Assembly (NCBI RefSeq): GCF_965237655.1 | Contig: NZ_CBDEGB010000001.1 | Location: 756,033-820,032 of the forward strand | Origin: Candidatus Poriferisodalis sp. | Lineage (GTDB): Bacteria > Actinomycetota > Acidimicrobiia > Acidimicrobiales > Poriferisodalaceae | Direction of reading: 5' to 3' | Length of the DNA stretch: 64,000 bases | Shown here: positions 45,392-63,297 of the stretch, piece after piece | How the letters are laid out: the number at the start of each line of letters is the position of its first letter | Position numbering within the stretch: the stretch's first letter is position 1 | Notes under the pieces: model-generated | The model's database searches: none | Told to the model about the DNA's origin: nothing | Seen by the model: the letters and a program-made list of their open reading frames with translations, nothing else | Program-made: the position numbers and the translations under genes

Positions 45392-45458
45392 GCGGCAAGC
45401 AGCCCGGCGGCCTGCCGTGACAAGGTCCCAGCGCAGCGTCGCGATCGAGACCGGCGCC

Positions 45459-45881: not shown

Positions 45882-45909
45882 GCGCCCAGCGCTCCGGAAC
45901 GGCGCTGGC

Positions 45910-46560: not shown

Positions 46561-46713
46561 GGGGCCAAAAGATAACCCCGCCAGGCCCGGCAAGGCCGGG
46601 ACGGCGGGGAGGAATGCACGAACCGTATCGGATGGCACTACGAGACCGCAACACGCGCCGCTGAATCGCCCCGGGTTTGGGGGTTATAGGGCTGTTTCCC
46701 CAAGGAGGTAAGT

Positions 46714-46941
46714 GTGTCTGCAAGTGAAGCCGTTGAGTATTCGCGTTGTGATGGACCGGGTGGGGAAGTCACCTACGCCAATCAAATGCTCATGCCATTG
46801 GGGGGCGCGTGCGATGCATTGATTGGAGCATCGGCCACATCGTCACAGCGCTCAACGCTGCGAACATTCCAACCGCGGCTAGCTGCTGCGGACATCAGCG
46901 GACGCCGGGGCTTATCAGCCTCTAAGACGGCCGCCAGCTAG
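46714..46941 (+). pseudogene. Small ORF with a strong SD, 3' end replaced by the IS982 terminus
   Basis: AAGGAGG then 5 nt then GTG at 46714. The stop codon at 46939-46941 lies inside the IS inverted repeat. Confidence 0.25.
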
Positions 46942-48583: not shown

Positions 48584-49879
48584 TCAGATGATGTGGATGG
48601 TGCGCATCCAAGAAGGGACGTCTTCGGTTGGGGCGTTGTCACCGATGAGGGCGGCGATGACGGTGGGCCGTCCGGGTGGTGGCTGATCGGGCCAGGGTGT
48701 GTATCCGTCGGTGAGGACGATGATGGCGGTGGGCCGGGTTTGGGCGATGGTGTTGATGGCGGTTTCCATGTCGGTGCCGCCGCCTCCGTGCAGGGGCAGG
48801 TTGCGGGTGCCGGTGGTGCGCTGGTGGGCTTGGGTCTCGGTGTCGTAGGCGTAGTAGTCGATGTGGTGTCCGGGCACGACTTGTGTGCAGATGTTGTGGA
48901 TTTCTGCTGCGGCTTGTTGGTGTTCGTCGGTTTCCATGGAGCCTGAGGTGTCCATGATGACGGCGAGGTCGGGGATGGGTCGGGTGGTGGCGGGCCGCAG
49001 GATCTCGCCGTGCGCGGTGTTGGTGTTGGGTCGTCTGGGTGGTCGGGTCCAGGTGTAGTCGGCGTCGCCTGCGCGTTGGTAGGTGGCGCGGCGCAGCGCG
49101 GCGAGCAGGATGCGGCGCCAGTCGACTTGGGGGCGGAGTTGCTGGTCGGCCCAGCGCAGGAGGCTGTCGGGGACGGTGTCGGGGTCGTTTTGTTCGTGGT
49201 CGAGGGCTGCTTGGGCGACGCGTCGGCACAGCATGCGTTCTTGGGTGCTGGTGGGTGTGCCGGTGTCTGGTGGGGGTTCCCACCAGGGGGTGATTCCGGT
49301 GGCTGCGGAGCCGCAGTCGGCGTCGATGCGGTGGATGTCGCCGGTTCTGGGGTCGCCCCATGCGATGGTGCCGTTGTCGGGGTCGATGCGGTCGCTGTGG
49401 AGAATATGGCGGTAGTAGGTCTCGGCGGTCTGGGAGACGGGGTAGTGCATGTCCCATGGCCCGGGCCAGTGGTCGGGCAGTTCGGCAGTGTTGTAGGGGA
49501 GGCCGTCGATGAGGTCGTCGTTGATCTCGCAGTCTGCGGCGAGGTTCCATGCGTGTGTGTGCAGCGGGTTGTTGACGGCGCGTCGGGCGCGTTGGTGGTG
49601 GCCGCGCAGGGCGTGGTTGAGGACGTGCATGAGCTCGACTGCGGTCTGGTCGACGGTGAGGGTGTTGATGTGATCGGGGTTGGCCCAGATGCGCCAGCTG
49701 GTGTCGATGGCGACGGTGTCGATGTGGCCGGTGGTGTGCAGCGGGCAGCGGAACAGCGCGGTCATGTAATACGGGCAGTGGGACGCGATCCAGTAGCGGG
49801 CGGCGCGCATGCGCCGCAGCGCGGCCTGCTGGGCTGCTGTCGAATCGTCGGGATTGTCGTAGTCGTGGTGTGTGCTCAT
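48584..49879 (-). CDS. DUF2201-type protein: metallopeptidase-like N-domain plus VWA domain
   Basis: ELMHVLNHALRGH is an HExxH-like position with the Glu replaced. MIDAS VIMDTSGSM. ...GGGGTDM...VLTDGY. The ATG at 49877-49879 overlaps the MoxR stop (ATGA). The upstream 214 aa of the tracked ORF is an out-of-frame shadow of the MoxR gene. Confidence 0.8.
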   Translation of the reverse strand: MSTHHDYDNPDDSTAAQQAALRRMRAARYWIASHCPYYMTALFRCPLHTTGHIDTVAIDTSWRIWANPDHINTLTVDQTAVELMHVLNHALRGHHQRARRAVNNPLHTHAWNLAADCEINDDLIDGLPYNTAELPDHWPGPWDMHYPVSQTAETYYRHILHSDRIDPDNGTIAWGDPRTGDIHRIDADCGSAATGITPWWEPPPDTGTPTSTQERMLCRRVAQAALDHEQNDPDTVPDSLLRWADQQLRPQVDWRRILLAALRRATYQRAGDADYTWTRPPRRPNTNTAHGEILRPATTRPIPDLAVIMDTSGSMETDEHQQAAAEIHNICTQVVPGHHIDYYAYDTETQAHQRTTGTRNLPLHGGGGTDMETAINTIAQTRPTAIIVLTDGYTPWPDQPPPGRPTVIAALIGDNAPTEDVPSWMRTIHII

Positions 49880-51012
49880 GTGCCGGGCTCGGGGTTGTTG
49901 TGGGGGTCGAGGAGTTCGAGGAACACGTTGTTGAGGAGTTCGTGGCCTTCGGGGAGGCGTGCTTTGGGGGGCCGGATAGCGGCGAAGGTGCGTGCTGCGG
50001 TCATGGCGATGTCGGGTGCGTGCTGTCGGGCTGCTGCGACGCACACTTCGAAGCCTTTGGCCCATCGTGCGGGGGTGTTGTGCTCGGTGACCGCGGCGGC
50101 GACGGCGTGCAGGCACGCGAGCTGCTGATCGGAGCGTTCGGGAAGTCGCAGCGACGCGGGCTCGGCGAGGAGCGCTTCGGGGTCGGGCAGGTCGAGCTCT
50201 GCGAGGAATGTCAGGTATTCCGCTGCGGCGGCGGTGCCCAGCAGCGCTTCGGCGACGAGTTCGTGCACGTCGGGATTGGCACCGGCGGTGTCGGCTGCGG
50301 CGAGGCAGGTGGCGGTGCGTTCCCAGGTGCGCGGCGACGGCCATCCTTGTTCGCCGCTGTCGTCGGACACGCTGGTGCTGTGGGGCACGGCGCACAGCAG
50401 TTCGCTGCGGCGTCGCATGAACGCGGTCTGCATCGCCCGATGGAACGACACCCGCCCAGGGTCCGGGTCGCCGATCTTGAGCGGCTCGGGAACGGGCCAG
50501 CCGCCGAGGTGCCCAGCTGCCCATTCATCGACGCCCAATGGCCACCTGAGGTGTGCGAACCGGTTCGCGAGCGGCGCGGAGAGATCCCACGCCCCGGAGT
50601 TCTGCGACGGTGGGTTCGCTGCTGCGGCGAATCTGGCTTTGGCGCCGAGGTCGATGTCGCCGACTCGGCCGCTGAGCACGACGCGCATCAGTGCGTTCTG
50701 GGTGGCGGGGGTGGCGGTGTTGATCTCGTCGAAGAACACCAGCGTGTCGGAGTCGCGCTCGGCGACGCGTCGCGCCCATGCGGGGGGCTCGAGAATCACC
50801 CCGGCGGGGGTGCGCACCGGCAGCCCGCCGATGTCAGTGGGGTCATACAGCGACGCAACCACCGTCTCGGTCGCCCATCCTGCGGCTGCGGCGAACGCTT
50901 CCACGGTGACGGTTTTGCCGGTGCCCGGGTCGCCCCAGATCAGCACCGGGATGCGTGCTGCGAGCAGGATCTGCATCGCTTCGAGGGTGAGCCGCTGAGT
51001 CGTGTCGCTCAT
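49876..51012 (-). CDS. MoxR-like AAA+ ATPase (AAA_5)
   Basis: Walker A WGDPGTGKT, Walker B LVFFDEINTA and sensor/arginine block ANPP...LANRF. Confidence 0.85.
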   Translation of the reverse strand: MSDTTQRLTLEAMQILLAARIPVLIWGDPGTGKTVTVEAFAAAAGWATETVVASLYDPTDIGGLPVRTPAGVILEPPAWARRVAERDSDTLVFFDEINTATPATQNALMRVVLSGRVGDIDLGAKARFAAAANPPSQNSGAWDLSAPLANRFAHLRWPLGVDEWAAGHLGGWPVPEPLKIGDPDPGRVSFHRAMQTAFMRRRSELLCAVPHSTSVSDDSGEQGWPSPRTWERTATCLAAADTAGANPDVHELVAEALLGTAAAAEYLTFLAELDLPDPEALLAEPASLRLPERSDQQLACLHAVAAAVTEHNTPARWAKGFEVCVAAARQHAPDIAMTAARTFAAIRPPKARLPEGHELLNNVFLELLDPHNNPEPGT

Positions 51013-51115
51013 CGTTTTCTCCTTGCAAATTCAGTCGTCGTTGGAAGCCGCGAACGCTGCCACAGGGGTGTGACACACATCGCACCGAACCGGGACGGGG
51101 CCGTCGTTCGTGAGG

Positions 51116-52756
51116 TCACCGCTGTGTCCATCGGCGGCGGTCGGCGGGGCTCGTGCAGTTCTCGGGAGGCGGTCCGCAGACCGTCACGTATGCGTCCCCG
51201 ACCTGTTTGCGCAGTTCGGCGTCGAGCGCGTCGTTGTCCAACAGCGCCCCGAGCGTGTCGAGGTCCTCGTCGGATTGGGCACACTCAGCGATCGCCCGCA
51301 GCGCACCCAGGGGTGTGCGCAGGTTTCTCGCAGTCGCTTCGCGAACGTGCCGATGCGGGTCCGTGGCCAGACGCTCCAGCAGCCTGACGGGGGTTTCGGG
51401 CATCCCCGCAGCGATCAGGCGGGCCCACCAGTGACTGTCGCACGCGAGACGCTCGGCTACACCGGCCATGTCGGTGCGGTCGGTGGCGGGGTTCGCTGCG
51501 GCCTCGGCCGCCGCTTGGCTGTCGGGGTCCTCGCACAGCCCCCGCAGCACCCCCGGCGGTGTCGCACAGTTCGCGGCGACCCGGCGCCGCACCAACACCA
51601 CACGGTCCCTCGACAGCCGTTCCAGCACTACTGGGGGCGTGGCGTGGTTCGCTGAGGCGGCGGCGCGCACCGACCTGTGCGGATCAGCCGCGAGCGCGTC
51701 GAGCAGCCTCGCCGGCGAAGCGGGGTTCGCGGCGACCGCGACGCGCACCTCTGTGTCGAGGCTCGGGGCGAGCGCTTCGAGGACCCGCACCGGCGCACGA
51801 GGCGCCCGACCGACCGTGGCTCGCACCGTCGGGTCGCTGTGGGAAGCCAGATCGCGCAGCAGCCGTGCTGGCGCACGCGGATGCATCGCGGCAAAGATCT
51901 GCTGGAACACCTCCGCGCTGCCCCCACGCCACGTCTGCCTCGCATAGAACTCCTCCACCCGCCCCACCGCAGCCTCGGCGACCAGCCAGGCGGGCGTGGA
52001 CGGGTTCTGCAGCACCCGCAGCCGAACGCACACATCGTCGAAACTGTGAGCCGTCTTGCAGCCCAACTTCTTGAGCGCTTCGACCGGGGTAGAGGGGTTC
52101 ACCGCCACTAGATCGCGAATCTGCCGATCGCGCTCGCCAGCCAGCTCGCCCAAACGTCGCGGGTCCGCATCCGGGTCCGTGGCTGTGGCCACATCCCGGA
52201 AACGCCGATCGGAATGCGCGGCCATCGTGTCGAAGAACCCCGCACCGAGCCGCTGCCCGACCTGCGTGTCGAACTCCCAGCGGCCCTCGCCCGTCCAGTT
52301 GGACCAGCCCGGCAGCCGCCACGGCGTGCGCCACAACGCACGCTCCAGCCGCTTCGCGAGCACCCACGACACGAACTCCCACGCCGCGTCGCTGCCCAGA
52401 TGCGCGCACGCCACCGCCAACGCGTCACGCTCATCGAACGCCAAATGCCAATATCCATACGGTCGGCGGATCCACAGCCACGCCAGCCGGCGAACCAGGC
52501 CGCTGAGCTGATCAGGGCGCACCAGACTCGCATTCAGCGCCGCCGTGACACCCCGCGCACGTCCCAGCGCCTCATTGGGCTGCCCCAAGGTCTCAAGCAG
52601 TGCCGTCTCCGAAGCCAAAACCTCCTCGTCGACCACAGCCCACACGCCGGCCCGCCGCTCCAAGACGACCTCGACGCCGTCCAGCATCACTCGGCGAACC
52701 AGATCGCCCTGCGGCCACACCACGACCCGGCGCTTGCTCATGTTTGTCCCAGACAT
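51116..52756 (-). CDS. Leucine-rich-variant / HEAT-like repeat protein
   Basis: At least six repeats of the NP(S/A)TPxxxLxxLAxDxxxxVRxxVAxN type in the C-terminal 330 aa. First gene of the operon. Confidence 0.65.
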   Translation of the reverse strand: MSGTNMSKRRVVVWPQGDLVRRVMLDGVEVVLERRAGVWAVVDEEVLASETALLETLGQPNEALGRARGVTAALNASLVRPDQLSGLVRRLAWLWIRRPYGYWHLAFDERDALAVACAHLGSDAAWEFVSWVLAKRLERALWRTPWRLPGWSNWTGEGRWEFDTQVGQRLGAGFFDTMAAHSDRRFRDVATATDPDADPRRLGELAGERDRQIRDLVAVNPSTPVEALKKLGCKTAHSFDDVCVRLRVLQNPSTPAWLVAEAAVGRVEEFYARQTWRGGSAEVFQQIFAAMHPRAPARLLRDLASHSDPTVRATVGRAPRAPVRVLEALAPSLDTEVRVAVAANPASPARLLDALAADPHRSVRAAASANHATPPVVLERLSRDRVVLVRRRVAANCATPPGVLRGLCEDPDSQAAAEAAANPATDRTDMAGVAERLACDSHWWARLIAAGMPETPVRLLERLATDPHRHVREATARNLRTPLGALRAIAECAQSDEDLDTLGALLDNDALDAELRKQVGDAYVTVCGPPPENCTSPADRRRWTQR

Positions 52757-53293
52757 GGCCGCGACCCTCGCGAAGGGGTGTCACAAACATCCAACCTCGC
52801 CGCCGCGAAAGCTCGCCGCGGACACGCCACGACCCACCGGTCCAGGACCGCACATCTCGCCAACGAATGTCACACGCGCGGTCCCAGCTGCCGAGCAGAA
52901 CCGCCCAAGGCCCCTCTTCGCATCGCCGTCGTGGGAATCCGCCGACAGCTTCCCAACCCATTCCCGCGGTCGGTCTCGGCCCGAAATCACTCGCTGTGCG
53001 TCACACCCCACCTCTACGGTGCGATGCAACCCCAGAGCCCGCATCCGCGCCCGAGCGGACCCCCAGCCGTGGTGCGCGGCGGCGCAGCCGAAAAGACGAC
53101 CCTGCCTGAATGCGAGCCTTACGAGTTCACAACTGAACACGCGTGGGACGACATCGCCGCGCTCAGCCCTGACGCGGCGGGGCAGTTTGGGCGAGTGGCT
53201 GAAGTCGCATGTGAGCTTCATGAATTGCCTTCTCAATCTCCCACGGCGTCGCACTTGCCGAAGCGGCCGCCGAGGGCAAGATCGTCGCCTTCG

Positions 53294-54085
53294 ATGAGCG
53301 TCACTGCTTCTGCCCAGCGAATGCAGACGGCTCCCCGTGAACTGACTCGGCTGGGAATGGCATTCTTGACCGCCGCCGACGAGTTCGCAGGGGTGGTTGT
53401 GTCTGACGATGCCTGGGCGGCGGATCCAGAGACGTGGATTCCGAGGCAGAGTTTCAGGCTCTCGCTGTCGAACATGCTGGTCATCCAGGCCGGGCTTGAG
53501 GGAACTCTCAGCAAGGCCCTAATGCCGTTCGCTGCGCGCGTGCTTCTTGAGGACGGAGCTAGATGGGCTGCGCTGCTGCCCGATGCGACTCAGGCCGGAC
53601 CGGGCGAGACCCTGAAGGCGCTGGTCAAAAACGCAACTTGGCGCCGAGACAGAATCGCCGAACGCCTTAGTTCTGAGGGGGTGCCGCAGCACTTGATCGA
53701 CGATGTGCTTGGAGCAGCGCTAGCAATCCCGCAACCCGAACCGCCGGCGCAACCGCCGCCGAGCCTGGACCAGATGCTGCAATCCGCGTACGCGAACGCG
53801 TCCGGTGTCGACTCCGCCCGGGCGATGTACGCCGTGCTGTCACAGTTCGTGCACGCCACGCCCATCTCGAACTGGCACATTCGCCGCGACACCTTCCCGT
53901 CGTTGACAGCACTCATTTACGCCGTCTCGATCGAGGCGGCAGCCCGCGGATTTGAGCGGATCGCCTCGATCACCGCAGTACTGGTCGGTGTCAACTCAGC
54001 GGCTCTGGAAGCGTCCCTGAACGAGCTCCGGGCGCGACGCACAGCGATTTTGCAAGGTGCGTTCATCTACCACGCGCTCGGTTAG
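53294..54085 (+). CDS. Hypothetical helical protein (possibly DUF5677-like)
   Basis: 263 aa from the ATG at 53294. The long upstream part of the tracked ORF 52214-54085 is the antisense shadow of the LRV gene. ...YAVLSQFVHATP... Confidence 0.4.
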   Translation: MSVTASAQRMQTAPRELTRLGMAFLTAADEFAGVVVSDDAWAADPETWIPRQSFRLSLSNMLVIQAGLEGTLSKALMPFAARVLLEDGARWAALLPDATQAGPGETLKALVKNATWRRDRIAERLSSEGVPQHLIDDVLGAALAIPQPEPPAQPPPSLDQMLQSAYANASGVDSARAMYAVLSQFVHATPISNWHIRRDTFPSLTALIYAVSIEAAARGFERIASITAVLVGVNSAALEASLNELRARRTAILQGAFIYHALG

Positions 54086-55255: not shown

Positions 55256-56212
55256 TCAGAGTTCGCCGAGGACCGGCTCGACAGCACTCCGCAGTTTCCC
55301 CAGGGTGAGCACCATCCAGGCGTAGGCGTCTGGCCACTGGTCTTCGTCGTCGATGGTGATCTCGGCGGGGAAGTAGGCACTCACACGAGATGCCCGCCTG
55401 TCTTCGAGCGGTGACCATTCCAAAGGTTCGCCGCAAGCCGTCTCGATGTCTACGCTGCGCGCTTCGAGAGCCGAGTACAAGTCGGCCGTGGCGTCTTTGT
55501 CGCCGGTGTCGACGTATGCCTCGACACGCAGGCGCGGGGCTCCGTCCAGCCGACAGAACGAAACGCCGAACGCCACTCCTAGACGCCGCTTGAAGCTCAT
55601 CCACGAGTGCTTCGATGGCTTGCCCTGCCCGGCCCATCCTGGACTGTCCTCGCGGAACGCCGTCTGCGCCGCGGCCCAGAATCTGCGATAGAGCGCATTG
55701 CGCTCGCTGTCCTGGCGGTCCTTGGTCGCCCTGACGCTCTTAGACCAGTCGTCGGGCTGCACCACGACCTGCAGCTGCGGCGCAGGTATCGATTCGCCGA
55801 TGCGCCATATCTCCAGGGCAAGCCCGAAGAAACCGCAGTCCTCAGTCGAGACCGAGTTCAGCCAGTTCAGCGCGGAGCGGTGATCGGGGCGGAACTTCTC
55901 GGTCAGCAGCACGGCGTAGCTCGCCTTGAGGCCGGCCGCGTAGGTGATGAGCTTGCCGAGGTGGTCATGGTTCGTCGAGCCGTACATGTTCTCCACGACC
56001 ACGAGGCCGTCCGACGACAGGTCCCGCAGCACGAGGTCAGCGCTGAACTCGCCGACCTCGACCTCTCGGCCCTCCAGCTCGAGTTCCATCCCGAGGGCCT
56101 CGCTCAGCAGTTCGACATGCTCGGCCAGCCACGGCGTGAAGTCGCCGGCCTCGTCGGGCCACACATTGCGCACGGGGACATTCTCAAGTGTCCCGATCTC
56201 GTTCTCGCTCAT
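55256..56212 (-). CDS. DUF4268-type protein with a NucS/PD-(D/E)XK-like N-terminal nuclease fold
   Basis: WPDEAGDFTPWL...EVEVGEFSADLVLRD...VVVENMYGSTNHDHLGKLITYAA, then a DUF4268-like C-terminal half (ALYRRFW...). The ATG is codon 20 of the tracked ORF. Confidence 0.6.
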   Translation of the reverse strand: MSENEIGTLENVPVRNVWPDEAGDFTPWLAEHVELLSEALGMELELEGREVEVGEFSADLVLRDLSSDGLVVVENMYGSTNHDHLGKLITYAAGLKASYAVLLTEKFRPDHRSALNWLNSVSTEDCGFFGLALEIWRIGESIPAPQLQVVVQPDDWSKSVRATKDRQDSERNALYRRFWAAAQTAFREDSPGWAGQGKPSKHSWMSFKRRLGVAFGVSFCRLDGAPRLRVEAYVDTGDKDATADLYSALEARSVDIETACGEPLEWSPLEDRRASRVSAYFPAEITIDDEDQWPDAYAWMVLTLGKLRSAVEPVLGEL

Positions 56213-56791
56213 CGACGCCCCCTCGCCCGGTCGCGTGTCCTGTCCCGCGAAACGAAGTTGCGAGACCAACTCGGCAGGGCCAGATCTTGCGACTGTCTAG
56301 TACGTTGACCGCAGCGGTGCGTCCCAAGATGAGAAGTACTTCGCCGCAGCAAGCCAGTCTTGAGAGCCGTCAGCGCAGCACCCTGATCAGGGCATACCGT
56401 CCAAACACGTTCCAGAATCGACGTTCGCACGTTCCCCGCCCATTCAACACGGAGCTGTGACTCGGGGCACATCTCAATAACGCTGACCCAATTGGGAGTC
56501 GGTTGTGGCCCCAATCTGAGATCGCCCCGCGCTCCGACCGGCAGTTCTGGCATAGACGCGTTCCACGGCGTTGCAACCTCGAGATCACTACCAGGCAGGA
56601 CGCAGTTTCGCGCACGTCCCGGGCGATCCCGAATCGGCCTGCGGGTGCATATACCCAATGGGAGCACGGCGAACGCCCCCTGTTGCTGCGGGTAGGACCA
56701 CCTCAAGGACAACGTTAGGAACCAACGTTCTTTCTGTGTTCCGGTAGCGTCACTTGGTGCCGCCTAGTTTCGCTTCAGCCGGAGGGATCGG

Positions 56792-57832
56792 ATGTCAAAC
56801 CAGGTCCTGCGAAAGCTCCTTCACGCAGGCTTGCTCTCCGCGCTCGGTGATGACGACCAGCGGCGAGAGCGGGCAGAGGCAGCGTCCGACCGTGTTGCCG
56901 AGTGGCTCGGCAGCGACGGCCGCTCCCAGTTGGCGGCATCGTTGATTCACTCGATTGACGAGTCGATCACGACGATCAACCATCCGGTCTTGAGCTTTGC
57001 TGACGAATGCCTGCTGGAGCAGTGGCCGTCGTTTCGCAATGCGTTCGCTGAGCCACCAGCTGAGCTCCTGCGAGCAACGGTGTTTCAAGCCGCCATCTCG
57101 GCGGCGGCTTCTGACCCGACACTCGAGGCCGTTCTCTCGTACGTGCTTCGGACAGCCGAGACGTTGAAGATCTCGGTAGGCAGATGGCAGGAGGTGGTGC
57201 GAGGTGAAGCCGAGAGGATCAACACGGCTGTCGAGAAGCGTTTGGAAGCCACATGGCTGCCCTCGCCGGCCGCAGGGAAGTTGCGAATGCCGCCGATGCC
57301 GGCATTGGAAGAATCTGGCGACGAGTCATCTGACTTGCGAGCTTTCGCGGAGAAAGTCGGTGGGAACCTCCGGTCGCAACTGGAGGCCCAGTGGGCCGTT
57401 GTCGGTGCGACCCAGTTGAGGGAGAGGCTGTTGTGGTGGCACCTCGCGGCGTACTCCGAGACTCTGAAGATGCGCTACGTCGAAGTGGAAGCCACCGCGA
57501 TCCGCTGCATCGCTGCAGCGGTCGATGTTTGGAGACTGTCGCCCGCCATTGCTCCGCGCGCCGTCGAGCATCTTCTCACGGCCACTGTCGACTCCACCTG
57601 TGAAAGGCAAGTCGCCGTTTCATTCGTGGATTTGGTGGAAGCATGGCAGCAGATCACCTCCGACCACGAGTTCGGTGTCGTTGATGGTGGCCTCGTGCTG
57701 GCTGCGCTTTCAAGTGGCGACGCAAGTGTGACGGGCTCAACCCTTCCGGAGACTCTCACGGCTTGTGATGTCGCCGCGATTGTGTATCGAGATCTTCAAG
57801 TCCTCCGACTGCTCAACGAGACGAACAGTTGA
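56792..57832 (+). CDS. All-helical protein, first gene of the GTPase operon (GASH-like by context)
   Basis: 346-aa A/L/E-rich ORF with no enzymatic motif. GGAGGGA lies 5 nt before the ATG. The family call rests on gene context only. Confidence 0.5.
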   Translation: MSNQVLRKLLHAGLLSALGDDDQRRERAEAASDRVAEWLGSDGRSQLAASLIHSIDESITTINHPVLSFADECLLEQWPSFRNAFAEPPAELLRATVFQAAISAAASDPTLEAVLSYVLRTAETLKISVGRWQEVVRGEAERINTAVEKRLEATWLPSPAAGKLRMPPMPALEESGDESSDLRAFAEKVGGNLRSQLEAQWAVVGATQLRERLLWWHLAAYSETLKMRYVEVEATAIRCIAAAVDVWRLSPAIAPRAVEHLLTATVDSTCERQVAVSFVDLVEAWQQITSDHEFGVVDGGLVLAALSSGDASVTGSTLPETLTACDVAAIVYRDLQVLRLLNETNS

Positions 57833-57850
57833 TCTGCAAGAGATGCGGCC

Positions 57851-58885
57851 TTGACGTCGATCGCTGATCCCTCACCCGAAGTGCCTGGTGGCGAACCGCT
57901 GGCTCACGGTCGGGCTCAAGCCGAGGCTCAAGATGTCGCCTTGGATCAGGCTGGTGGATGCACGAACCGGTACTGCTTTGCTCCTGATTCCAACTGCCAT
58001 CTCGGTGAACTCGAGATTGCCAGTTGCATCAACTGGCAACAGGACATTCCGATCCAGTCCGCTCCGATGGTCGAAGGTGAACGCCCGCCTTGGTCTGGGC
58101 TGGCCCTCGGAACCGTGGATGCAGGCGGCGTCGCTGCAACTCGGCGGGCACGGGTAGTCGCGCTAGTCGGAGGTACCGGCGCCGGCAAGACCTCGCTTCT
58201 TACGGCCATATTCACTCGGCTTCGGCATGGAAGCCCCATCGGTGGCCTGCGCTTTGCTGGCTCGTACACACTCTTGGGATGGGATCAGGTCACCTACCTC
58301 GCCGCATTCCCTCCAGAGGGCACACGAGGATTCCCTCCGCACACCACGAGCGGCCGCGAGCCGGCGCTGCTCCATGTCCGCCTCGCGTCCGGCTCGAGGG
58401 CGTTCTGGGACATCTACTTCACTGACGCCCCCGGGGAGTGGTTTGAAGAATGGGCCTATGAACCTGTCGAGATGCCTGGGGCGCAATGGATATCTGAGCG
58501 TGCGGACATGTTCGTGCTTCTGTCCGATTCCGCTGCGTTGTCAGGCGAGTCACGCGGCGCAGCACGCAACGCATACCGCGTGCTGGCAAGCCGGGTCTCC
58601 TCGGTCGCGAATGGGCGCGAGGTCTACCCAGTTAGGGCGAAGTACGACCTGATGTCCACGGTTGCCGCCGAAATTGACGAAGCGCTCAACAAGACGGACA
58701 TCGACCTCTTCGGGCAAACCGCCGCTCCTCTATCGGTGATCGCAGAATCTCCCGTGCCAGACGCACTCCATGTACTTGACGAGATCGTTCAACGGGTGAC
58801 CGCTCCTGCACAGTTGTCCGTTACCGATCCAAGACTGTCTTCGGACCCGTTCCTCAGTTATCGCAGCCCTTTGGCCAAGACATGA
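57851..58885 (+). CDS. P-loop GTPase-like protein A with a Cys-rich N-terminal extension
   Basis: Walker A GGTGAGKTS (58169-58195), FTDAPGEWF (DxxG-like) and VRAKYD (degenerate NKxD position). The TTG start is uncertain, with an alternative ATG at 58067. Confidence 0.65.
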   Translation: MTSIADPSPEVPGGEPLAHGRAQAEAQDVALDQAGGCTNRYCFAPDSNCHLGELEIASCINWQQDIPIQSAPMVEGERPPWSGLALGTVDAGGVAATRRARVVALVGGTGAGKTSLLTAIFTRLRHGSPIGGLRFAGSYTLLGWDQVTYLAAFPPEGTRGFPPHTTSGREPALLHVRLASGSRAFWDIYFTDAPGEWFEEWAYEPVEMPGAQWISERADMFVLLSDSAALSGESRGAARNAYRVLASRVSSVANGREVYPVRAKYDLMSTVAAEIDEALNKTDIDLFGQTAAPLSVIAESPVPDALHVLDEIVQRVTAPAQLSVTDPRLSSDPFLSYRSPLAKT

Positions 58886-59721
58886 GCTCAACAGGCGAAT
58901 CCGAAACCCCGGCCGAGCTCACCCTCATCATCGGAGGACCCGGCAGTGGGAAATCAACGTATCTGGTGCAACTGTTCGGTCGCCTCCAAGAAGGCTCCAG
59001 CGCTTTCTCGCTCGTCGACGCGCCAGAGAGCCTTGGCCCGGTCAGAGACGGGCTGAACCGTCTCGCCCAAGGGTTGCCAGTTCGCCATACCTCAACCGGG
59101 GCGGAACTCATCCAAGAACTCAAGACCGTAAGGAACGACGGTGCGGAAGTGCGGGTGTCCATCCCCGACTACCCGGGCGAAGCCGTTGACGAACTGGTTG
59201 CTCGTCGCCGTGTTCCTTTCCGCTGGCGCGATCTGGCCGTGGAATCCGCTCGATGGCTGCTGTTCGTTCGGGTCGAGCAGATGCCCGACCTCCCTGGTTT
59301 GCCCGCACGCGAAGTGTCGACCCCAAGCTCCCCCGACCTGCAACGCGAACTGCCCATGGACATCCGGCTAGTCGAGCTGCTCCAGATCTTGCGCCACGAA
59401 CGTCGACGGCGAAAGCCGTCTGCATCCGAGATGCCAGACCTAACGATCGTGATGTCGTGCTGGGATGAGATCTCAGATAAACCTGACGGCATTGCGCCGG
59501 CGTCCATCCTGCATGAGCGGGCACCGCTCATGCACTCGTATGCGGAAGCCAGCTGGGAGCCTGCCCGCTTGTCTGTCGTCGGGCTCTCGGCGCAAGGGCT
59601 TTCGCTCGAAGAGTCGAATCCGAACGCCCAGTTCATTGACCTCGGCCCCGAGTCGATGGGGTTCCTCGTGCGACAAGACGGGACGGTGACAGACGACCTC
59701 ACTGAACTCTTGGCACGATGA
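58882..59721 (+). CDS. P-loop GTPase-like protein B (paralogue of A)
   Basis: Walker A GGPGSGKST (58933-58959), IPDYPGEAV and VMSCWDE. ATGA overlaps at both ends. Confidence 0.65.
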   Translation: MSSTGESETPAELTLIIGGPGSGKSTYLVQLFGRLQEGSSAFSLVDAPESLGPVRDGLNRLAQGLPVRHTSTGAELIQELKTVRNDGAEVRVSIPDYPGEAVDELVARRRVPFRWRDLAVESARWLLFVRVEQMPDLPGLPAREVSTPSSPDLQRELPMDIRLVELLQILRHERRRRKPSASEMPDLTIVMSCWDEISDKPDGIAPASILHERAPLMHSYAEASWEPARLSVVGLSAQGLSLEESNPNAQFIDLGPESMGFLVRQDGTVTDDLTELLAR

Positions 59722-62669
59722 GTGAGCGATTCGGGTGGGCAAGATTCGGCGATGTGAACGGCGGGCACAACCTGATCGATGCGAATGGCATTGAGAGCGA
59801 TCTGCTCAGCGACATTCGCTGGCACACTGACCTGCCGCCTGCCGCACCGTCCGAATGGCCTGCGTTCTTCGCCGGCTACCCGATCGGGGACCAGTACGTC
59901 GTTCAGTTCACCCAGCCCGACACTCAAGCCAGCCGGCCCGGGATGGTCGCAACGACATTGGTCACGGTTGGCCTCAGCGAAGTTGGAAGGGTCGCGCTAG
60001 CAACCCTCCGACGGGCGTCTGCCCTGATCAGCGAACCCGCAGCCCCTCCGCACCGTCACGAACGCATAGACGGCCTCGGCGCTGTCTTGAACCTACTGGC
60101 GGGCTCAGGGCCGGCCTACTGGGTCGGAGACCCGACTTTCGGCCTACTGGTCGACCAACTCTGGGAAGTGCTGAATGCGGAAGATCGAGCGGCGCTCGTG
60201 TTCGGGGCGCTGTTCACGCCAACAAGCATTCCGTACCCACTGATCAGCGGAACAACGCACGGCGTCTACCGCGTGCCGGAGCATCTGCGCTCGAGATTCC
60301 AGACCAGATCGATAGTCAGCGCAGCGAATCCGCCTGTCGCCGGCGAGCCTGCCAGCGACATACTCGCTGGCAGGACGGGCATCGCAGCCGATCTCGGCAT
60401 CGAAACACCATCGCTTCGCCAGTGGCTCCATCTCTCGAAGGCAAACCGCTACTACAACCAAGCTGGCATCTCGAATCCCGATGAGCTCCGGTCCTGCGCT
60501 CATCTCGTCATGCTGCTCGCCCCTGAGCCAGAAGACGGCCTGTCGATCAAACAGCGGTTGGGCACGATGATCGTCGAGTCAAGTGCGAGCGCTCCCTTCT
60601 CGCATATCCGAGGTCTTCGCAGTATCGAGCTCGACGATCTAGGCGTTCAGCTCAGGGACGCCATCGATCCGTGGGCAGATGCAGTGATTCGGGACCCAAA
60701 CCGCATCGATGATCTCGAGGCCGCTTTGGCTGAGACGGCAGTCACCCCGTCGGATCCGCTCTCTTCCAAGTTGGAAGCCGCGCTAGCCGAGCAGATCGCA
60801 GCGAGCGGTCAGGCGATCATGGGCCACTTCGATGCTGCGCTGACTGTGGACAATCGAGCCGTATTCGCTGCGCTTGCCCGCCACCTTGACCGAACCCGGG
60901 GCGATTTGATGTTGGCATCCGTGAGCGCAATCGGTAGTCGAGATTGGACTCACGAGATTGCCCGACTTGAAGAGCTGCCCCTCTTCCACGCCAGCTCGTG
61001 CCCGACGGATGAGCCGATCGGTGCATTCAGCGCGCACCTATCAATCTCTGGACATTCGGCCGAGTCATGCGCGCGACTCGCAGCTAGGTGCAGGCCGCAG
61101 CACGTCGTATCGGCTGCGTGCGCCCTCGGGGCACCCGACCTCATCCCACTTGCTGCAAGAGCTGCTCTACAAGATGTTGACGCTCTCTTGCCGGCGCAGC
61201 CAGCCAACCGACACTGGCTGGACATCTGGGCGCATGCAGTTGACGGCGGTGCCGACCCATGGATCTGGCTCCAACCCGAGGAGGCTGTGGTGCCGGTTAT
61301 CGACGCTCTCATGGACGGCAATCAGTCCATGGCGAGGATTCTGACCGAACTGAGTAAGCACGACGACATCGATCTCGCCACTTACCCCAGACGAACTGAA
61401 GCATGGGGCATCATCCAAGAACCAGCACGCTCCCGCCTGCTCCGCCGCACTGCGGTCACAATTGTCCTCGAGGGCACGGTGACCGACGACCTCGAGCCGG
61501 CGCTGCGCAGCGCTGTTCTCAGCGCTGACGTCATGGCACGAGCAGCAGCCTCGGATGTCTCAGCGGCAATCGATGCCCTTGAGACACTCGCTGCGCATGC
61601 GAACTCCGATATCGCCAAAGCTGTAGTCAAGGCAGCCGATCTCGGAGTCGATGCTGACCGGTTCGCTGACCTCATCGTTCACCGAAGCTGGACAGGGGCA
61701 GCACGCTACGTCATCCGCAAGGCCCCGGACAGGCCGGATCTCGCGTCGATTGAAGGCAAGTGCCGGCAGGTCTTCCTCATGACCGTGGTCGACTGGTTTG
61801 ATGCCATGCTCGGTAGGTACCCGAAGCCAGTTCGCGCACGCCTCAGAAATGACACTCTGCCAGGAACGTTAGATGCGCTGATCGTCACAGCAATTCAGAT
61901 AGAGCGAAAGGCTGTTCGGAAACACCTCGAGGATTGGAAGTCTTTACGCCACAAGAAGATCACCGTCGACGTCGGAACATTCGAAGGCGGCGAGCGGACG
62001 CTCCGCGTCGGAGTCATTGAGGTCGGTCAAGGCAACATCGGCGCAGCCACCATCACGACGATGGCCGTGGAAGGGCTGCAGCCGCAGATCGTTCTGATGG
62101 TGGGTGTGGCCGGCGGAGTCAAGGATGTCGATATCGGCGATGTGGTCGCATCGAGCAAGATCTACTGGGCCGAATCCGGCAAGAGTGAGGCCGATCATGA
62201 GGCACCACGACCTGACCATGGACCTGTTTCACAAGACCTGGTTCAGGTCGCCCGAGATGTTGCCGCAGACGACACATGGAAATCCCGACGGCTGAGCGAA
62301 GCCGACGCGGCCTCAGCACCCAAGGCGATAGTCGCTCCGATTGTGGCGGGCGAGCGCGTCGTCGGGTCCAGAGATTCTGCAGATGCACGCCGAATCAAGG
62401 AGACCTACGGCGATGCCGTCGCAGTCGACATGGAAGATATGGGCGTCGCCACCGCAGCAGACTGGACTGGATCTAAGTGTTTGGCGATACGGGCCATATC
62501 CGACCTCCTCGACGGCAAGGCAGAGGCGGACGCGGGCGGCAGCCAACCAATCGCCGCTGCCAATGCAGCTGCTTTTGCATTCGAACTGCTCGCGAGATTC
62601 CACCACTCGACCTTCGAAGACGCACCATTTGACGAAACTGGCCCACTCACCCAAGACCTCGACAGCTAG
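59718..62669 (+). CDS. 983-aa scaffold protein (GAP1-like by context) with a C-terminal PNP/UDP-phosphorylase (MTA/SAH-nucleosidase-like) domain
   Basis: Residues about 716-960 (nt 61863-62597) hold ALIVTAIQIERKAV, MVGVAGG (62103-62117), VAPIVAGERVV and AVDMEDMGVA, the nucleosidase hallmarks. The N-terminal 700 aa has no recognised motif. Confidence 0.65.
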   Translation: MSERFGWARFGDVNGGHNLIDANGIESDLLSDIRWHTDLPPAAPSEWPAFFAGYPIGDQYVVQFTQPDTQASRPGMVATTLVTVGLSEVGRVALATLRRASALISEPAAPPHRHERIDGLGAVLNLLAGSGPAYWVGDPTFGLLVDQLWEVLNAEDRAALVFGALFTPTSIPYPLISGTTHGVYRVPEHLRSRFQTRSIVSAANPPVAGEPASDILAGRTGIAADLGIETPSLRQWLHLSKANRYYNQAGISNPDELRSCAHLVMLLAPEPEDGLSIKQRLGTMIVESSASAPFSHIRGLRSIELDDLGVQLRDAIDPWADAVIRDPNRIDDLEAALAETAVTPSDPLSSKLEAALAEQIAASGQAIMGHFDAALTVDNRAVFAALARHLDRTRGDLMLASVSAIGSRDWTHEIARLEELPLFHASSCPTDEPIGAFSAHLSISGHSAESCARLAARCRPQHVVSAACALGAPDLIPLAARAALQDVDALLPAQPANRHWLDIWAHAVDGGADPWIWLQPEEAVVPVIDALMDGNQSMARILTELSKHDDIDLATYPRRTEAWGIIQEPARSRLLRRTAVTIVLEGTVTDDLEPALRSAVLSADVMARAAASDVSAAIDALETLAAHANSDIAKAVVKAADLGVDADRFADLIVHRSWTGAARYVIRKAPDRPDLASIEGKCRQVFLMTVVDWFDAMLGRYPKPVRARLRNDTLPGTLDALIVTAIQIERKAVRKHLEDWKSLRHKKITVDVGTFEGGERTLRVGVIEVGQGNIGAATITTMAVEGLQPQIVLMVGVAGGVKDVDIGDVVASSKIYWAESGKSEADHEAPRPDHGPVSQDLVQVARDVAADDTWKSRRLSEADAASAPKAIVAPIVAGERVVGSRDSADARRIKETYGDAVAVDMEDMGVATAADWTGSKCLAIRAISDLLDGKAEADAGGSQPIAAANAAAFAFELLARFHHSTFEDAPFDETGPLTQDLDS

Positions 62670-62776: not shown

Positions 62777-63061
62777 GTGGCTCGAGCAAGAAGAGGTGAT
62801 GCTCTGGCCTCCGGTCCTGGCCACAACGCGTTCCGCGAATCGACCAAACGCGTTCCGCAAACCGTCGTAACGCGTTCCGCGGCCACCCAGCGGCATCTCG
62901 CTGACCTGCGAGAACACAGTTTCGCACCAACCCCACGAGGGCAATTCGCACACGTCCCCGAGAGGACGGCTGTCCGAAGTCTGCCCCTTTCGCAGCAGAG
63001 TTCGGCACGCCGTAGCGCTCGCGGCATCCTCGCCGAAGCTGACAAGATGGTTGAACCATGA
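62777..63061 (+). CDS. Possible HicA-like toxin
   Basis: ATGA overlap with the HicB-like gene. ...QRHLADLREHSFAPTPRGQFAHVPERTAVRSLPLS...ARGILAEA loosely follows the HicA pattern. The start is uncertain. Confidence 0.35.
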   Translation: MARARRGDALASGPGHNAFRESTKRVPQTVVTRSAATQRHLADLREHSFAPTPRGQFAHVPERTAVRSLPLSQQSSARRSARGILAEADKMVEP

Positions 63062-63297
63062 AACCTGACGTGACCACCTTGGGACATCGCGTCGAAGTTG
63101 TGCAATCTGGCGAGTGGTGGGCGACTACGGTTCCTTCGCTTCGGGGCGTCTTCTCGCAAGCGAGACACCTCGACGAGGTGCCGGCGGCCGCTTGCGAGGC
63201 GATCGCCCTGATGCTCGATGTTGATCCTGCCGACGTGGGGCCGATCGACGTGCGTGTGCAGCGGCAGCAGGGTGGGGCTGAGCTTCTGGCCGGGTAG
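63058..63297 (+). CDS. HicB-like (UPF0150) antitoxin-fold protein
   Basis: HRVEVVQSGEWWATTVPSLRGVFSQARHLDEVPAAACEAIALML fits the HicB N-domain pattern. No DNA-binding tail is present. Confidence 0.55.
   Translation: MKPDVTTLGHRVEVVQSGEWWATTVPSLRGVFSQARHLDEVPAAACEAIALMLDVDPADVGPIDVRVQRQQGGAELLAG

What the first reader, a model, noticed from the sequence alone, without database searches (positions are those of the whole stretch)
56792..62669. Candidate uncharacterised defence system: helical protein + two paralogous GTPases + giant scaffold ending in a PNP/MTAN-type nucleosidase
Seen: four co-directional ORFs follow a 520-bp lower-GC leader, with SD GGAGGGA 5 nt before ATG 56792. An 18-nt gap is followed by two ATGA stop/start overlaps (58882-58885 and 59718-59721), meaning tight translational coupling and probably fixed stoichiometry. 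ORF1 is all-helical with no catalytic motif. ORF2 and ORF3 are P-loop NTPases with matching Walker A and D-x-P-G-E motifs. ORF4 is 983 aa. Its first 700 or so residues have no motif I can name, and its last 245 or so carry GVAGG and VDMEDMG, hallmarks of the PNP/UDP-phosphorylase (MTA/SAH nucleosidase) fold. Knowledge: as far as I recall, this gene set matches GTPase-centred conflict systems predicted purely in silico by comparative genomics (GASH, DO-GTPase1/2, GAP1 with exchangeable effector domains). I know of no experimental characterisation of these. PNP-fold effectors in CBASS and Detocs have been shown to cleave ATP into adenine and ribose triphosphate. Inference: a GTPase switch or timer assembled on the GAP1-like scaffold licenses a nucleosidase that depletes ATP or another purine nucleotide, giving abortive infection. 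The flanking TA pair and defence genes fit that reading.
Basis: partly seen in the sequence, partly recalled or inferred. Interest (0 to 1): 0.9.

Follow-up and report, generated by a model that had tools for sequence, protein, structure and literature searches.

The report
GTPase-switched nucleosidase defence operon
This four-gene operon in a sponge-symbiont actinobacterium belongs to a GTPase-controlled conflict (probably anti-phage) system that was predicted by computer in 2020, has not been tested experimentally as far as I could find, and carries a killing domain that most likely destroys ATP.

Summary
Four tightly coupled co-directional genes at 56792-62669 match Pfam GASH (1.3e-29), DO-GTPase2 (1.2e-39), DO-GTPase1 (7.8e-60), and GAP1-N1 (5e-15) plus PNP_UDP_1 (1e-19). 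This is the GAP1-N1-type "DO-GTPase" system of Kaur et al. (eLife 2020), which already lists a PNPase fused to GAP1. It is a new member of a known kind that has been studied only by computer. It is not a new system.

- The gene order is kept in about 40 loci across many phyla.
- The effector slot varies: PNP fused to GAP1, PNP-EAD1 in trans, caspase-EAD1, or CHAT.
- All six close homologous operons lie next to restriction-modification, toxin-antitoxin, TIR or GmrSD genes.
- The window copy sits in a low-GC3 island beside a PADLOC PDC-S11 candidate gene.
- The PNP domain keeps the catalytic Glu, Met-Glu and Ser-Asp. It shares motifs with the ATP nucleosidase Cap17 that MtnN lacks.
- A confident AlphaFold model of GAP1 (pLDDT 94) shows an alpha/beta head plus an alpha-solenoid. 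It has no significant PDB match.

Most likely mechanism: a GTPase heterodimer switch on GAP1 releases an ATP-cleaving nucleosidase and causes abortive infection. The activity and the trigger are inferred. I found no experimental paper.

The parts
56270..56791 (.). 522-bp divergent intergenic leader between the PDC-S11-like gene (minus strand) and the operon. The Shine-Dalgarno sequence GGAGGGA is at 56781-56787.
   Evidence: Sequence. GC is 0.605. No sigma-70-like promoter was found, and only short repeats at chance level.
56792..57832 (+). GASH protein (GTPase-associated system helical), 346 aa. It evolves fast and is a candidate sensor or adaptor.
   Evidence: Pfam PF19994 GASH, 1.3e-29. It is the first gene in every complete related locus. 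In distant loci it scores a median 0.13 bits per residue, against 0.43-0.55 for the GTPases.
57851..58885 (+). DO-GTPase2, 344 aa (TTG start). It has an N-terminal Cys4 zinc-ribbon-like motif (C37, C42, C49, C59), a P-loop at 107-115, HTTSGR at 164-169, DAPGE at 192-196 and RAKYD at 262-266.
   Evidence: Pfam PF19993, 1.2e-39. The invariant columns come from the six-sequence alignment A4.
58882..59721 (+). DO-GTPase1, 279 aa. It has a P-loop GGPGSGKST at 18-26, RHTS at 68-71, DYPGE at 96-100, SCWDE at 192-196 and GLSAQG at 234-239.
   Evidence: Pfam PF19975, 7.8e-60. Invariant columns are in A5. It is a paralogue of ORF2.
59718..60332 (+). ORF4 residues 1-205: the alpha/beta head of GAP1. The Pfam GAP1-N1 domain covers residues 8-93. 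Residues 1-101 have the secondary-structure order beta2-alpha-beta3-alpha2. Invariant polar residues are H17, D38, D68 and R73.
   Evidence: Pfam PF20012, 5.1e-15. The AlphaFold2 model has pLDDT 94. Invariant residues are from A6 and A7.
60345..61787 (+). ORF4 residues 210-690: the all-alpha solenoid-like scaffold of GAP1. This should correspond to the regions Kaur et al. call GAP1-M and GAP1-C.
   Evidence: AlphaFold2 model. It is collinear with 917 GAP1 family representatives. There is no significant PDB match and no Pfam match.
61878..62591 (+). ORF4 residues 721-958: the PNP/MTAN-fold nucleosidase effector domain. Catalytic candidates are E729, M905-E906 and S928-D929.
   Evidence: Pfam PNP_UDP_1, 1e-19. 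PADLOC CBASS 'Effector PN-superfamily' 4.6e-17 and PDC-M60C 4.6e-20. PDB MTANs match at 7e-11.
55256..56269 (-). Context, not part of the operon: a DUF4268 / PADLOC PDC-S11 candidate single-gene defence protein, transcribed divergently.
   Evidence: PADLOC PDC-S11, 1.7e-94. Pfam DUF4268, 1.1e-19.
62777..63297 (+). Context, not part of the operon: two small overlapping ORFs, 62777-63061 and 63058-63297. The second is HicB-like. They may be a TA pair.
   Evidence: HicB_lk_antitox, 2.9e-4, 21.4 bits, below the 27-bit cutoff. The first ORF has no match.

Best explanation
The operon is a complete GAP1-N1-type DO-GTPase conflict system, acquired horizontally by an Acidimicrobiia sponge symbiont (Candidatus Poriferisodalis).

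**Shown**
- It consists of GASH, then a zinc-ribbon DO-GTPase2, then DO-GTPase1, then GAP1 with a C-terminally fused PNP-fold nucleosidase.
- All four genes are intact, with NTPase and nucleosidase catalytic residues conserved.
- The PNP position is an exchangeable effector slot.
- The locus and its relatives sit among defence genes.

**Inferred**
- The two paralogous GTPases form a heterodimeric nucleotide switch bound to GAP1's conserved alpha/beta head.
- The fast-evolving GASH and GAP1 solenoid surfaces recognise an invader cue.
- The switch changes GAP1's conformation or oligomeric state, so that the tethered PNP domains are unmasked or brought together. Enzymes of this fold work as oligomers.
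- The PNP domain then hydrolyses the N-glycosidic bond of ATP/dATP, giving adenine plus (deoxy)ribose triphosphate as Cap17 and DtcC do. This stops growth of the infected cell (abortive infection).
For: **Identity**
- All four Pfam families are matched above their cutoffs.
- The architecture is described verbatim in Kaur et al. 2020.

**Conservation**
- The order GASH, GTPase2, GTPase1, GAP1 is kept in all complete related loci. These come from Actinomycetota, Bacteroidota, Proteobacteria, Acidobacteriota, Planctomycetota and other phyla.
- 4-nt start/stop overlaps recur in these loci.

**Effector slot (34 GTDB loci with a readable GAP1 region)**
- PNP fused to GAP1: 14 loci.
- PNP-EAD1 encoded in trans after a GAP1-EAD1 gene: 11 loci.
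- Peptidase_C14-EAD1 in trans: 6 loci.
- CHAT fused to GAP1: 2 loci.
- No effector recognised: 1 locus.

**Defence context**
- PDC-S11 is adjacent.
- The four genes have GC3 of 0.65-0.70, against 0.82-0.88 for host genes.
- Six of six close homologous operons are next to MmeI or type I RM, PIN or Phd TA, ThsB-TIR plus caspase, GmrSD or nSTAND genes.

**PNP domain**
- E729, M905-E906 and D929 align with MtnN E12, M173-E174 and D197. D929 also aligns with DtcC D353, the residue whose mutation abolishes Detocs defence.
- It scores 34.5 bits over only 73 aa against Cap17. That stretch includes shared ES and APRP[DE] motifs that MtnN lacks.
- Its nearest relatives are about 350-aa PNP-EAD1 effector proteins.
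- Rousset's Cap17-clade table lists a PNP gene from Rhodonellum psychrophilum, a genome that carries a GAP1-PNP fusion.

**GTPases**
- The P-loop Lys, switch-I Thr and DxPGE are invariant in both. An RAKxD guanine-specificity-like motif is present in GTPase2.

**Evolutionary rates**
- GASH and the GAP1 core evolve about four times faster than the GTPases.
Against: - There is no experimental evidence for any member of this family.
- Neither PADLOC nor NCBIfam has a model for the GASH, GTPase or GAP1 components.
- The substrate is not determined. Overall scores to housekeeping MTAN models (71 bits) equal or exceed the score to the CBASS PNP-effector model (60 bits). DtcC scores only 20 bits. The Cap17 sequence available to me was truncated before its catalytic Asp.
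- Kaur et al. suggested the PNPase might instead generate a nucleotide-derived signal.
- GTPase1 has SCWD in place of NKxD, so it may not be GTP-specific.
- Heterodimerisation, GAP1 binding and the trigger are untested. No multimer prediction was possible.
- No relative was found in IMG/VR viral contigs. That says nothing about the target.
Confidence: 0.6

Rival explanations
1. The system is the same, but the PNP domain does not deplete ATP. Either it releases a base or sugar-phosphate as a second messenger, or it attacks another substrate such as NAD-related molecules, other NTPs, or MTA/SAH-like nucleosides. The toxic or protective output would then be different.
For: - Kaur et al. proposed a signal-generating role for PNPase domains in these systems and noted that SLATT pore proteins often co-occur with them.
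- Whole-domain scores to MTAN and futalosine hydrolase models (71 bits) are as high as the score to the CBASS PNP-effector model.
- The residues that would define the 5'-substituent pocket could not be examined.
Against: - No SLATT gene or other downstream effector gene is present in the window or in the close relatives. The PNP is the last gene or domain.
- The PNP occupies the same slot as caspase and CHAT domains.
- It shares Cap17-specific motifs that MtnN lacks.
- It scores far below the MTAN equivalog cutoff (71 against 169 bits).
- Every immune PNP domain tested in Rousset et al. was an ATP nucleosidase.
Confidence: 0.2
2. The operon is not an anti-phage system. It could be a regulated self-killing or dormancy module used for kin or colony control, for symbiosis, or for conflict between mobile elements. 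It could also be a metabolic regulator in which GTPases control a purine-salvage nucleosidase.
For: - Kaur et al. frame these systems broadly as 'conflict systems' linked to programmed cell death.
- The host is an obligate-looking sponge symbiont.
- No phage data exist.
- The system has no PADLOC model.
Against: - The neighbourhoods are defence islands in the window and in six of six close relatives.
- Distribution is patchy and horizontally transferred across phyla, and composition is atypical for the host.
- The effector swaps with proteases, which argues against a salvage role.
- GAP1-N1 systems show no association with multicellularity (P = 0.9998 in Table 1 of Kaur et al.).
Confidence: 0.15
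3. The locus is a decaying, non-functional remnant of a horizontally acquired system.
For: - Some relatives look degraded: DO-GTPase1 is split in L001, and GAP1 and PNP-EAD1 are fragmented in L026.
- The locus sits in an IS-rich region.
Against: - All four window ORFs are full length, and every family-invariant catalytic residue is intact.
- ORF4 is 100% identical to a protein in public assemblies, found on two contigs.
- The fragmented relatives may reflect indel errors in long-read assemblies.
Confidence: 0.04

Closest known systems
GAP1-N1-type DO-GTPase ('GTPase-centric') conflict systems, Kaur, Burroughs, Iyer & Aravind, eLife 2020 (PMC7159879)
   Same: - It has GASH, two paralogous DO-GTPases (one with an N-terminal zinc ribbon and a Glu in Walker B) and a GAP1 with a GAP1-N1 domain.
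- The effector is fused to the GAP1 C-terminus or recruited through EAD1.
- PNPase is named as one of the effectors.
- The neighbourhoods are mobile.
- All of this was seen here.
   Different: - The lineage differs. This copy is in Acidimicrobiia sponge symbionts, whereas the paper says the N1 type is commonest in Proteobacteria, Bacteroidetes and Spirochaetes.
- No Pfam GAP1-M or GAP1-C match was found.
- In my sample, which was biased by the search pattern, PNP is the commonest effector. In the paper the commonest is calcineurin-like phosphoesterase.
Cap17 (type III CBASS effector) and DtcC (Detocs): immune ATP nucleosidases, Rousset et al. 2023 (doi 10.1101/2023.01.24.525353)
   Same: - The effector is a PNP_UDP_1-fold domain with the catalytic Asp conserved (D929 aligns with DtcC D353).
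- Cap17-type ES and APRP[DE] motifs are present.
- It sits at the C-terminus of a regulatory protein, and the context is a defence island.
   Different: - The upstream controller is a GTPase pair plus GASH and GAP1. It is not a CD-NTase with a TPALS sensor, and not a histidine kinase with a receiver domain.
- No cyclic-nucleotide or phosphotransfer component is present.
- Activity and substrate are untested here.
5'-methylthioadenosine/S-adenosylhomocysteine nucleosidase (MtnN/Pfs)
   Same: The fold and the hydrolytic catalytic residues are shared: Glu near the N-terminus, Met-Glu and Ser-Asp. MTANs are the best matches by sequence in the PDB (3bl6, 7e-11).
   Different: - The score of 71 bits is far below the NCBIfam equivalog cutoff of 169.
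- The domain is fused to a 700-aa scaffold.
- Several basic residues conserved in the effector family (K802, R831, K934) have no MtnN counterpart.
- The context is a defence island, not a housekeeping locus.
MoxR-vWA ternary systems (VMAP, iSTAND) and CATRA proteins of the same effector-sharing network
   Same: They draw on the same pool of effectors, including PNP-EAD1 and caspase-EAD1. The next-nearest PNP domains are in CATRA-N/PNP/CATRA-C proteins. The design logic is the same: an NTPase switch plus a variable effector.
   Different: The core NTPase is a TRAFAC GTPase pair, not an AAA+ MoxR with a vWA partner. According to Kaur et al., core components are not exchanged between these systems.
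PADLOC candidate system PDC-M60 (component C)
   Same: The C-terminal PNP domain matches PDC-M60C at 4.6e-20.
   Different: Only the PNP domain matches. No PDC-M60 partner models hit the other three proteins.

Membership tests
GAP1-N1-type DO-GTPase system (Kaur et al. 2020) | GASH-domain all-helical protein encoded in the operon | tested here: met
   PF19994, 1.3e-29, 104 bits against a cutoff of 27. I did not model its helical nature. That rests on the paper.
GAP1-N1-type DO-GTPase system (Kaur et al. 2020) | Two paralogous DO-GTPase genes of the TRAFAC clade, with a conserved Glu in Walker B | tested here: met
   PF19993 at 1.2e-39 and PF19975 at 7.8e-60. DAPGE and DYPGE are invariant. The two proteins match each other at E = 9e-6.
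GAP1-N1-type DO-GTPase system (Kaur et al. 2020) | One of the GTPases carries an N-terminal zinc ribbon | tested here: met
   C37, C42, C49 and C59 of ORF2 are invariant in six orthologues, while the surrounding N-terminus varies. Metal binding itself cannot be tested.
GAP1-N1-type DO-GTPase system (Kaur et al. 2020) | GAP1 protein with a GAP1-N1 domain, encoded downstream of a DO-GTPase | tested here: met
   PF20012, 5.1e-15, at ORF4 residues 8-93. It overlaps the DO-GTPase1 stop codon.
GAP1-N1-type DO-GTPase system (Kaur et al. 2020) | GAP1-M and GAP1-C domains follow GAP1-N | tested here: inconclusive
   There is no Pfam match in residues 94-711 even at E<=10, nor in 10 distant relatives. 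However, residues 1-690 are collinear with 917 GAP1 family representatives and fold confidently.
GAP1-N1-type DO-GTPase system (Kaur et al. 2020) | Variable effector fused to the GAP1 C-terminus or recruited through EAD1 | tested here: met
   PNP is fused here. Relatives have GAP1-EAD1 plus PNP-EAD1, caspase-EAD1, or fused CHAT.
GAP1-N1-type DO-GTPase system (Kaur et al. 2020) | Mobile neighbourhood rich in conflict genes | tested here: met
   The locus is a low-GC3 island with PDC-S11 adjacent. Six of six close relatives lie beside defence genes.
Cap17-clade immune ATP nucleosidase (Rousset et al. 2023) | PNP_UDP_1 fold with an intact catalytic Asp (Cap17 D472, DtcC D353) | tested here: met
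   PF01048, 1e-19. D929 aligns with DtcC D353 and MtnN D197.
Cap17-clade immune ATP nucleosidase (Rousset et al. 2023) | Falls in the Cap17 clade of the PNP tree, not in a housekeeping clade | tested here: inconclusive
   No tree was built. Support is indirect. Local similarity to Cap17 is 34.5 bits over 73 aa with shared motifs. A Rhodonellum psychrophilum PNP gene is listed in their Cap17-clade Table S4, and that genome carries a GAP1-PNP fusion. I could not verify that the two are the same gene.
Cap17-clade immune ATP nucleosidase (Rousset et al. 2023) | Cleaves ATP/dATP to adenine plus (deoxy)ribose-5'-triphosphate | not testable with these tools
   This needs a biochemical assay.
Housekeeping MTA/SAH nucleosidase (MtnN) | Reaches the NCBIfam equivalog score; stand-alone enzyme of about 230 aa | tested here: not met
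   NF004079 scores 71.1 bits against a cutoff of 169. TIGR01704 scores 44 against 73.8. The domain is the C-terminus of a 983-aa protein.
CBASS / Detocs | CD-NTase with a sensor domain (CBASS), or a histidine kinase with receiver domains (Detocs) | tested here: not met
   In PADLOC, only the PNP domain matches the CBASS effector model. No CD-NTase, SAVED, TPALS, HK or REC match is present in the four proteins.

The most novel reading that the evidence does not exclude
GAP1's conserved N-terminal domain may be a longin/roadblock-like GTPase-regulatory platform, with an invariant Arg (R73) and His/Asp residues (H17, D38, D68).

The whole assembly would then be a prokaryotic immune counterpart of eukaryotic heterodimeric-GTPase/longin modules such as Rag-Ragulator/GATOR or MglA-MglB. 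In that reading, GAP1 acts as the GAP or GEF of a DO-GTPase heterodimer, and the nucleotide state of the pair times the release of an ATP-destroying nucleosidase.

The only support is the secondary-structure order beta2-alpha-beta3-alpha2 in a high-confidence model and the invariant polar residues. I could not run a fold comparison on the isolated domain. A PDB profile search found nothing.
Probability: 0.2. Interest if true: 0.7.

Novelty: new member of a known kind. Interest (0 to 1): 0.4.

Why it matters
DO-GTPase/GAP1 systems are one of the large families of predicted bacterial conflict systems that still lack experimental study. GAP1 alone has 917 family representatives at 50% clustering. 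None of the core proteins has a solved structure or a PADLOC model.

This locus is a compact, self-contained version of the system. It has four genes and a fused effector whose chemistry can be read out through adenine and ATP levels. It and its cultivable relatives (Belliella marina, Rhodonellum psychrophilum, Maribacter) are therefore a practical way to ask how a small-GTPase switch can gate an immune effector in bacteria.

The finding does not reveal a new kind of system.

Tried and rejected
- **Word-indexed homologue searches** with full ORF4 and with a GAP1-core profile returned only the same 13 close relatives. The exhaustive HMMER search was needed to reach the wider family.
- **First AlphaFold run** with 9 sequences gave a poor N-terminus (pLDDT 68). 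I replaced it with a 55-sequence run (pLDDT 94).
- **Foldseek against the PDB** with both models gave only generic HEAT/ARM/TPR solenoids. No hit had E<=1e-3 and all TM-scores were <=0.21. I rejected the karyopherin/Ran hits as non-specific.
- **HMM profile of the GAP1-N1 domain against PDB sequences** found nothing meaningful; the best hit had E=1.
- **Pfam scan of the ORF4 middle region** at E<=10 found no GAP1-M or GAP1-C.
- **NCBIfam** has no model for GASH, the GTPases or GAP1.
- **The leader** has no sigma-70-like promoter and no repeat of note. No terminator follows ORF4, and the one terminator-like site lies inside the ORF4 coding sequence.
- **The IMG/VR scan** found no viral copy.
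- **The ORF at 56209-56712 (minus strand)** in the leader has no codon-position GC signal and no family match. I treated it as non-coding.
- **The full Cap17 sequence** could not be recovered, because the supplement cell was cut at 400 residues. The comparison with Cap17 therefore covers only the N-terminal half of its PNP domain.
The PDB MTAN alignments show the same residue correspondences independently.

Full report
**Observation**

- 56792-57832, 346 aa
- 57851-58885, 344 aa
- 58882-59721, 279 aa
- 59718-62669, 983 aa

The 18-nt gap and both ATGA overlaps are present. The quoted motifs are also present: GGTGAGKT and DAPGE in ORF2, GGPGSGKS and DYPGE in ORF3, and GVAGG and VDMEDMG in ORF4.

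Four small corrections apply:
- ORF2 can only start at a TTG.
- The GGAGGGA box ends 4 nt before the ATG, not 5.
- The 522-bp leader (GC 0.605) is no lower in GC than the operon (0.615). Both are below the rest of the window (0.664).
- ORF4's N-terminus does contain a nameable domain.

**Identity**

Pfam places the four proteins as follows, all far above the gathering scores:
- ORF1: GASH, 1.3e-29
- ORF2: DO-GTPase2, 1.2e-39
- ORF3: DO-GTPase1, 7.8e-60
- ORF4: GAP1-N1, 5.1e-15 at residues 8-93, plus PNP_UDP_1, 1e-19 at residues 721-958

Kaur, Burroughs, Iyer and Aravind (eLife 2020, PMC7159879) define the "GAP1-N1-containing GTPase-centric system" by exactly these parts. They state that one DO-GTPase has an N-terminal zinc ribbon. 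They also state that effectors, explicitly including PNPase, may be fused directly to GAP1 or recruited through EAD1.

ORF2 has four Cys residues (C37, C42, C49, C59) that are invariant in six orthologues within an otherwise variable N-terminus. Both GTPases keep the P-loop Lys, a switch-I Thr and the DxPGE Walker B with Glu. They are paralogues at E = 9e-6. The locus therefore meets every defining feature I could test.

The one exception is GAP1-M and GAP1-C, for which no Pfam match appeared. Even so, ORF4 residues 1-690 are collinear with a large GAP1 family. An exhaustive HMMER search found 917 representatives at E<=1e-3.

**Source and context**

ORF4 is 100% identical to a hypothetical protein of Candidatus Poriferisodalis sp. 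(Acidimicrobiia, a sponge symbiont), found on a 3.9-Mb contig.

The four genes have GC3 of 0.65-0.70. Surrounding host-like genes have 0.82-0.88, so the segment from about 52.7 to 63.3 kb looks horizontally acquired.

Neighbouring genes:
- Directly upstream and divergent is a DUF4268 protein that matches the PADLOC candidate defence gene PDC-S11 at 1.7e-94.
- Further away are a Hypoth_Ymh protein, an AbiEii-like gene, a NYN-domain gene and three IS elements.
- Downstream are two small overlapping ORFs. The second is weakly HicB-like, below threshold.

**Relatives**

Only 13 protein clusters share more than 45% identity with the GAP1 core. Six carry the fused PNP. Seven end in EAD1 instead and are followed by a separate PNP-EAD1 gene.

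All six close homologous operons that I could inspect sit next to defence genes:
- MmeI
- type I RM with Phd
- a PIN TA pair, DUF87 and a methyltransferase
- GmrSD, ThsB-TIR and a caspase
- nSTAND and Eco57I
- type I RM with GmrSD

A scan of GTDB species genomes with DO-GTPase1 patterns found 36 loci in at least eight phyla. I annotated them with HMMs built here. Every complete locus has the order GASH, GTPase2, GTPase1, GAP1.

| Effector arrangement | Loci |
|---|---|
| PNP fused to GAP1 | 14 |
| PNP-EAD1 in trans | 11 |
| Peptidase_C14-EAD1 in trans | 6 |
| CHAT fused to GAP1 | 2 |
| None recognised | 1 |

The sample is biased by the search patterns, but it shows that PNP occupies an exchangeable effector slot.

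Against distant loci, the GTPases keep 0.43-0.55 bits per residue. GASH and the GAP1 core keep only 0.13 and 0.11. That pattern fits conserved switch proteins paired with fast-evolving recognition or scaffold surfaces.

**The effector**

- The best matches by sequence in the PDB are MTA/SAH nucleosidases (3bl6, 7e-11). The alignments pair ORF4 E729, M905-E906 and S928-D929 with the MTAN catalytic Glu, Met-Glu and Asp.
- D929 also aligns with DtcC D353, the residue whose mutation abolishes Detocs defence.
- The domain is well below the MtnN equivalog cutoff (71 against 169 bits).
- Its closest relatives are hundreds of PNP-EAD1 effector proteins of about 350 aa.
- Against the truncated Cap17 sequence it scores 34.5 bits over 73 residues. 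That stretch includes ES and APRP[DE] motifs that MtnN lacks.
- Rousset et al. list a Rhodonellum psychrophilum PNP gene in their Cap17 clade with no assigned defence context. That genome carries a GAP1-PNP fusion. I could not confirm that the two are the same gene.

ATP nucleosidase activity is therefore the most likely chemistry, but it is inferred.

**GAP1 structure**

An AlphaFold2 model built on 55 diverse family members is confident, with mean pLDDT 94 and pTM 0.77. It has three regions:
- Residues 1-101 run in the order beta-beta-alpha-beta-beta-beta-alpha-alpha.
- Residues 120-205 form a second small alpha/beta unit.
- Residues 210-690 are an all-alpha solenoid.

Foldseek against the PDB (entries to April 2026) gives no hit at E<=1e-3 and no TM-score above 0.21. 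No solved structure represents this protein.

The N1 domain has family-invariant H17, D38, D68 and R73. Its secondary-structure order is that of longin-type GTPase-regulatory domains. That resemblance rests on my own knowledge and I could not test it. A profile search of PDB sequences found nothing.

**Mechanism**

My best-supported account has four steps:
1. A GTPase2/GTPase1 heterodimer sits on GAP1's head.
2. GASH and the GAP1 solenoid sense an invader.
3. A change in nucleotide state re-arranges GAP1.
4. The tethered PNP domains become active and cleave ATP/dATP, which aborts the infection.

What is shown: the gene set, the intact catalytic residues, the effector modularity and the defence context. 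What is inferred: the protein contacts, the trigger, the substrate and the outcome.

Three facts fit this account:
- Relatives replace the covalent GAP1-PNP link with an EAD1-EAD1 pair. That fits a recruitment or proximity mechanism.
- DtcC's isolated PNP domain is toxic. That fits release from inhibition.
- No SLATT gene or other downstream effector is present. That argues against the signal-generator alternative.

**Novelty and score**

I found no experimental paper. PADLOC has no model for the core proteins.

The architecture, including the PNPase fusion, was published in 2020. This is a new member of a known kind, in a lineage not emphasised in that paper. It is worth testing, preferably through relatives in cultivable hosts, but a specialist would not find it surprising.

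I score interest at 0.4.

Noticed in passing
window 55256-56269 (-): A DUF4268 protein matches the PADLOC candidate single-gene defence system PDC-S11 at 1.7e-94. It is transcribed divergently from the operon and has host-like GC3 (0.82).
   Followed up: partly
window 48584-52756 (-): A three-gene cluster with host-like GC3: an LRV-repeat protein (51116-52756), a MoxR-like AAA_5 ATPase (49876-51012), and a DUF2201 metallopeptidase/VWA-like protein (the domains cover residues 238-645 of the 48584-50524 ORF). It pairs a MoxR-like ATPase with a vWA-like protein. I did not test whether it is one of Kaur et al.'s MoxR-vWA conflict systems.
   Followed up: no
window 52214-54085 (+): A 623-aa ORF has island-like composition (GC3 0.71) and no Pfam, PADLOC or NCBIfam match. 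Its 5' part overlaps the LRV gene on the other strand by about 540 bp, so the true start, or whether it codes at all, is uncertain.
   Followed up: partly
window 62777-63297 (+): Two small ORFs of 94 and 79 aa are joined by a 4-nt overlap, 108 nt after the ORF4 stop. The second is weakly HicB-like (21.4 bits, below the cutoff). The first has no match. They may be a TA pair.
   Followed up: partly
window 39517-47925: This is a mobilome-rich stretch: an AbiEii-like gene (39517-40305), an IS3-family transposase pair (41831-42990), an IS110 transposase (43473-44687), a NYN-domain protein that matches PADLOC HEC-09 (45910-46638) and a DDE transposase (46960-47925).
   Followed up: partly
L001 8933-10004; L026 8810-12257: In two relatives the system looks broken. 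DO-GTPase1 is split into two ORFs in L001. GAP1 and PNP-EAD1 are fragmented in L026. This is either decay or indel errors in long-read assemblies.
   Followed up: no
ORF4 residues 1-101 (window 59718-60020): The GAP1-N1 domain is predicted with the order beta2-alpha-beta3-alpha2 and has invariant H17, D38, D68 and R73. From memory, this order is the one seen in longin-type GTPase-regulatory domains. Kaur et al. do not mention this.
   Followed up: partly
related loci L009-L044 compared with the window operon: GASH and the GAP1 core diverge about four times faster than the two GTPases (0.13 and 0.11 against 0.43 and 0.55 bits per residue in 23 distant loci).
   Followed up: yes
host organism / ORF4 PNP domain: The host and several relatives (Candidatus Poriferisodalis, Candidatus Spongiisocius) are sponge symbionts. 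Rousset et al. remark that an unexplained ATP N-glycosidase activity was reported in sponge lysate. It is pure speculation whether symbiont PNP effectors contribute to that activity.
   Followed up: no
L020 (Rhodonellum psychrophilum) and Table S4 of Rousset et al.: The published Cap17-clade table lists PNP genes from Rhodonellum, Nocardioides, Cellulomonas and Micromonospora with a blank 'defensive context'. Some of these may be unrecognised GAP1-linked or EAD1-linked effectors.
   Followed up: partly
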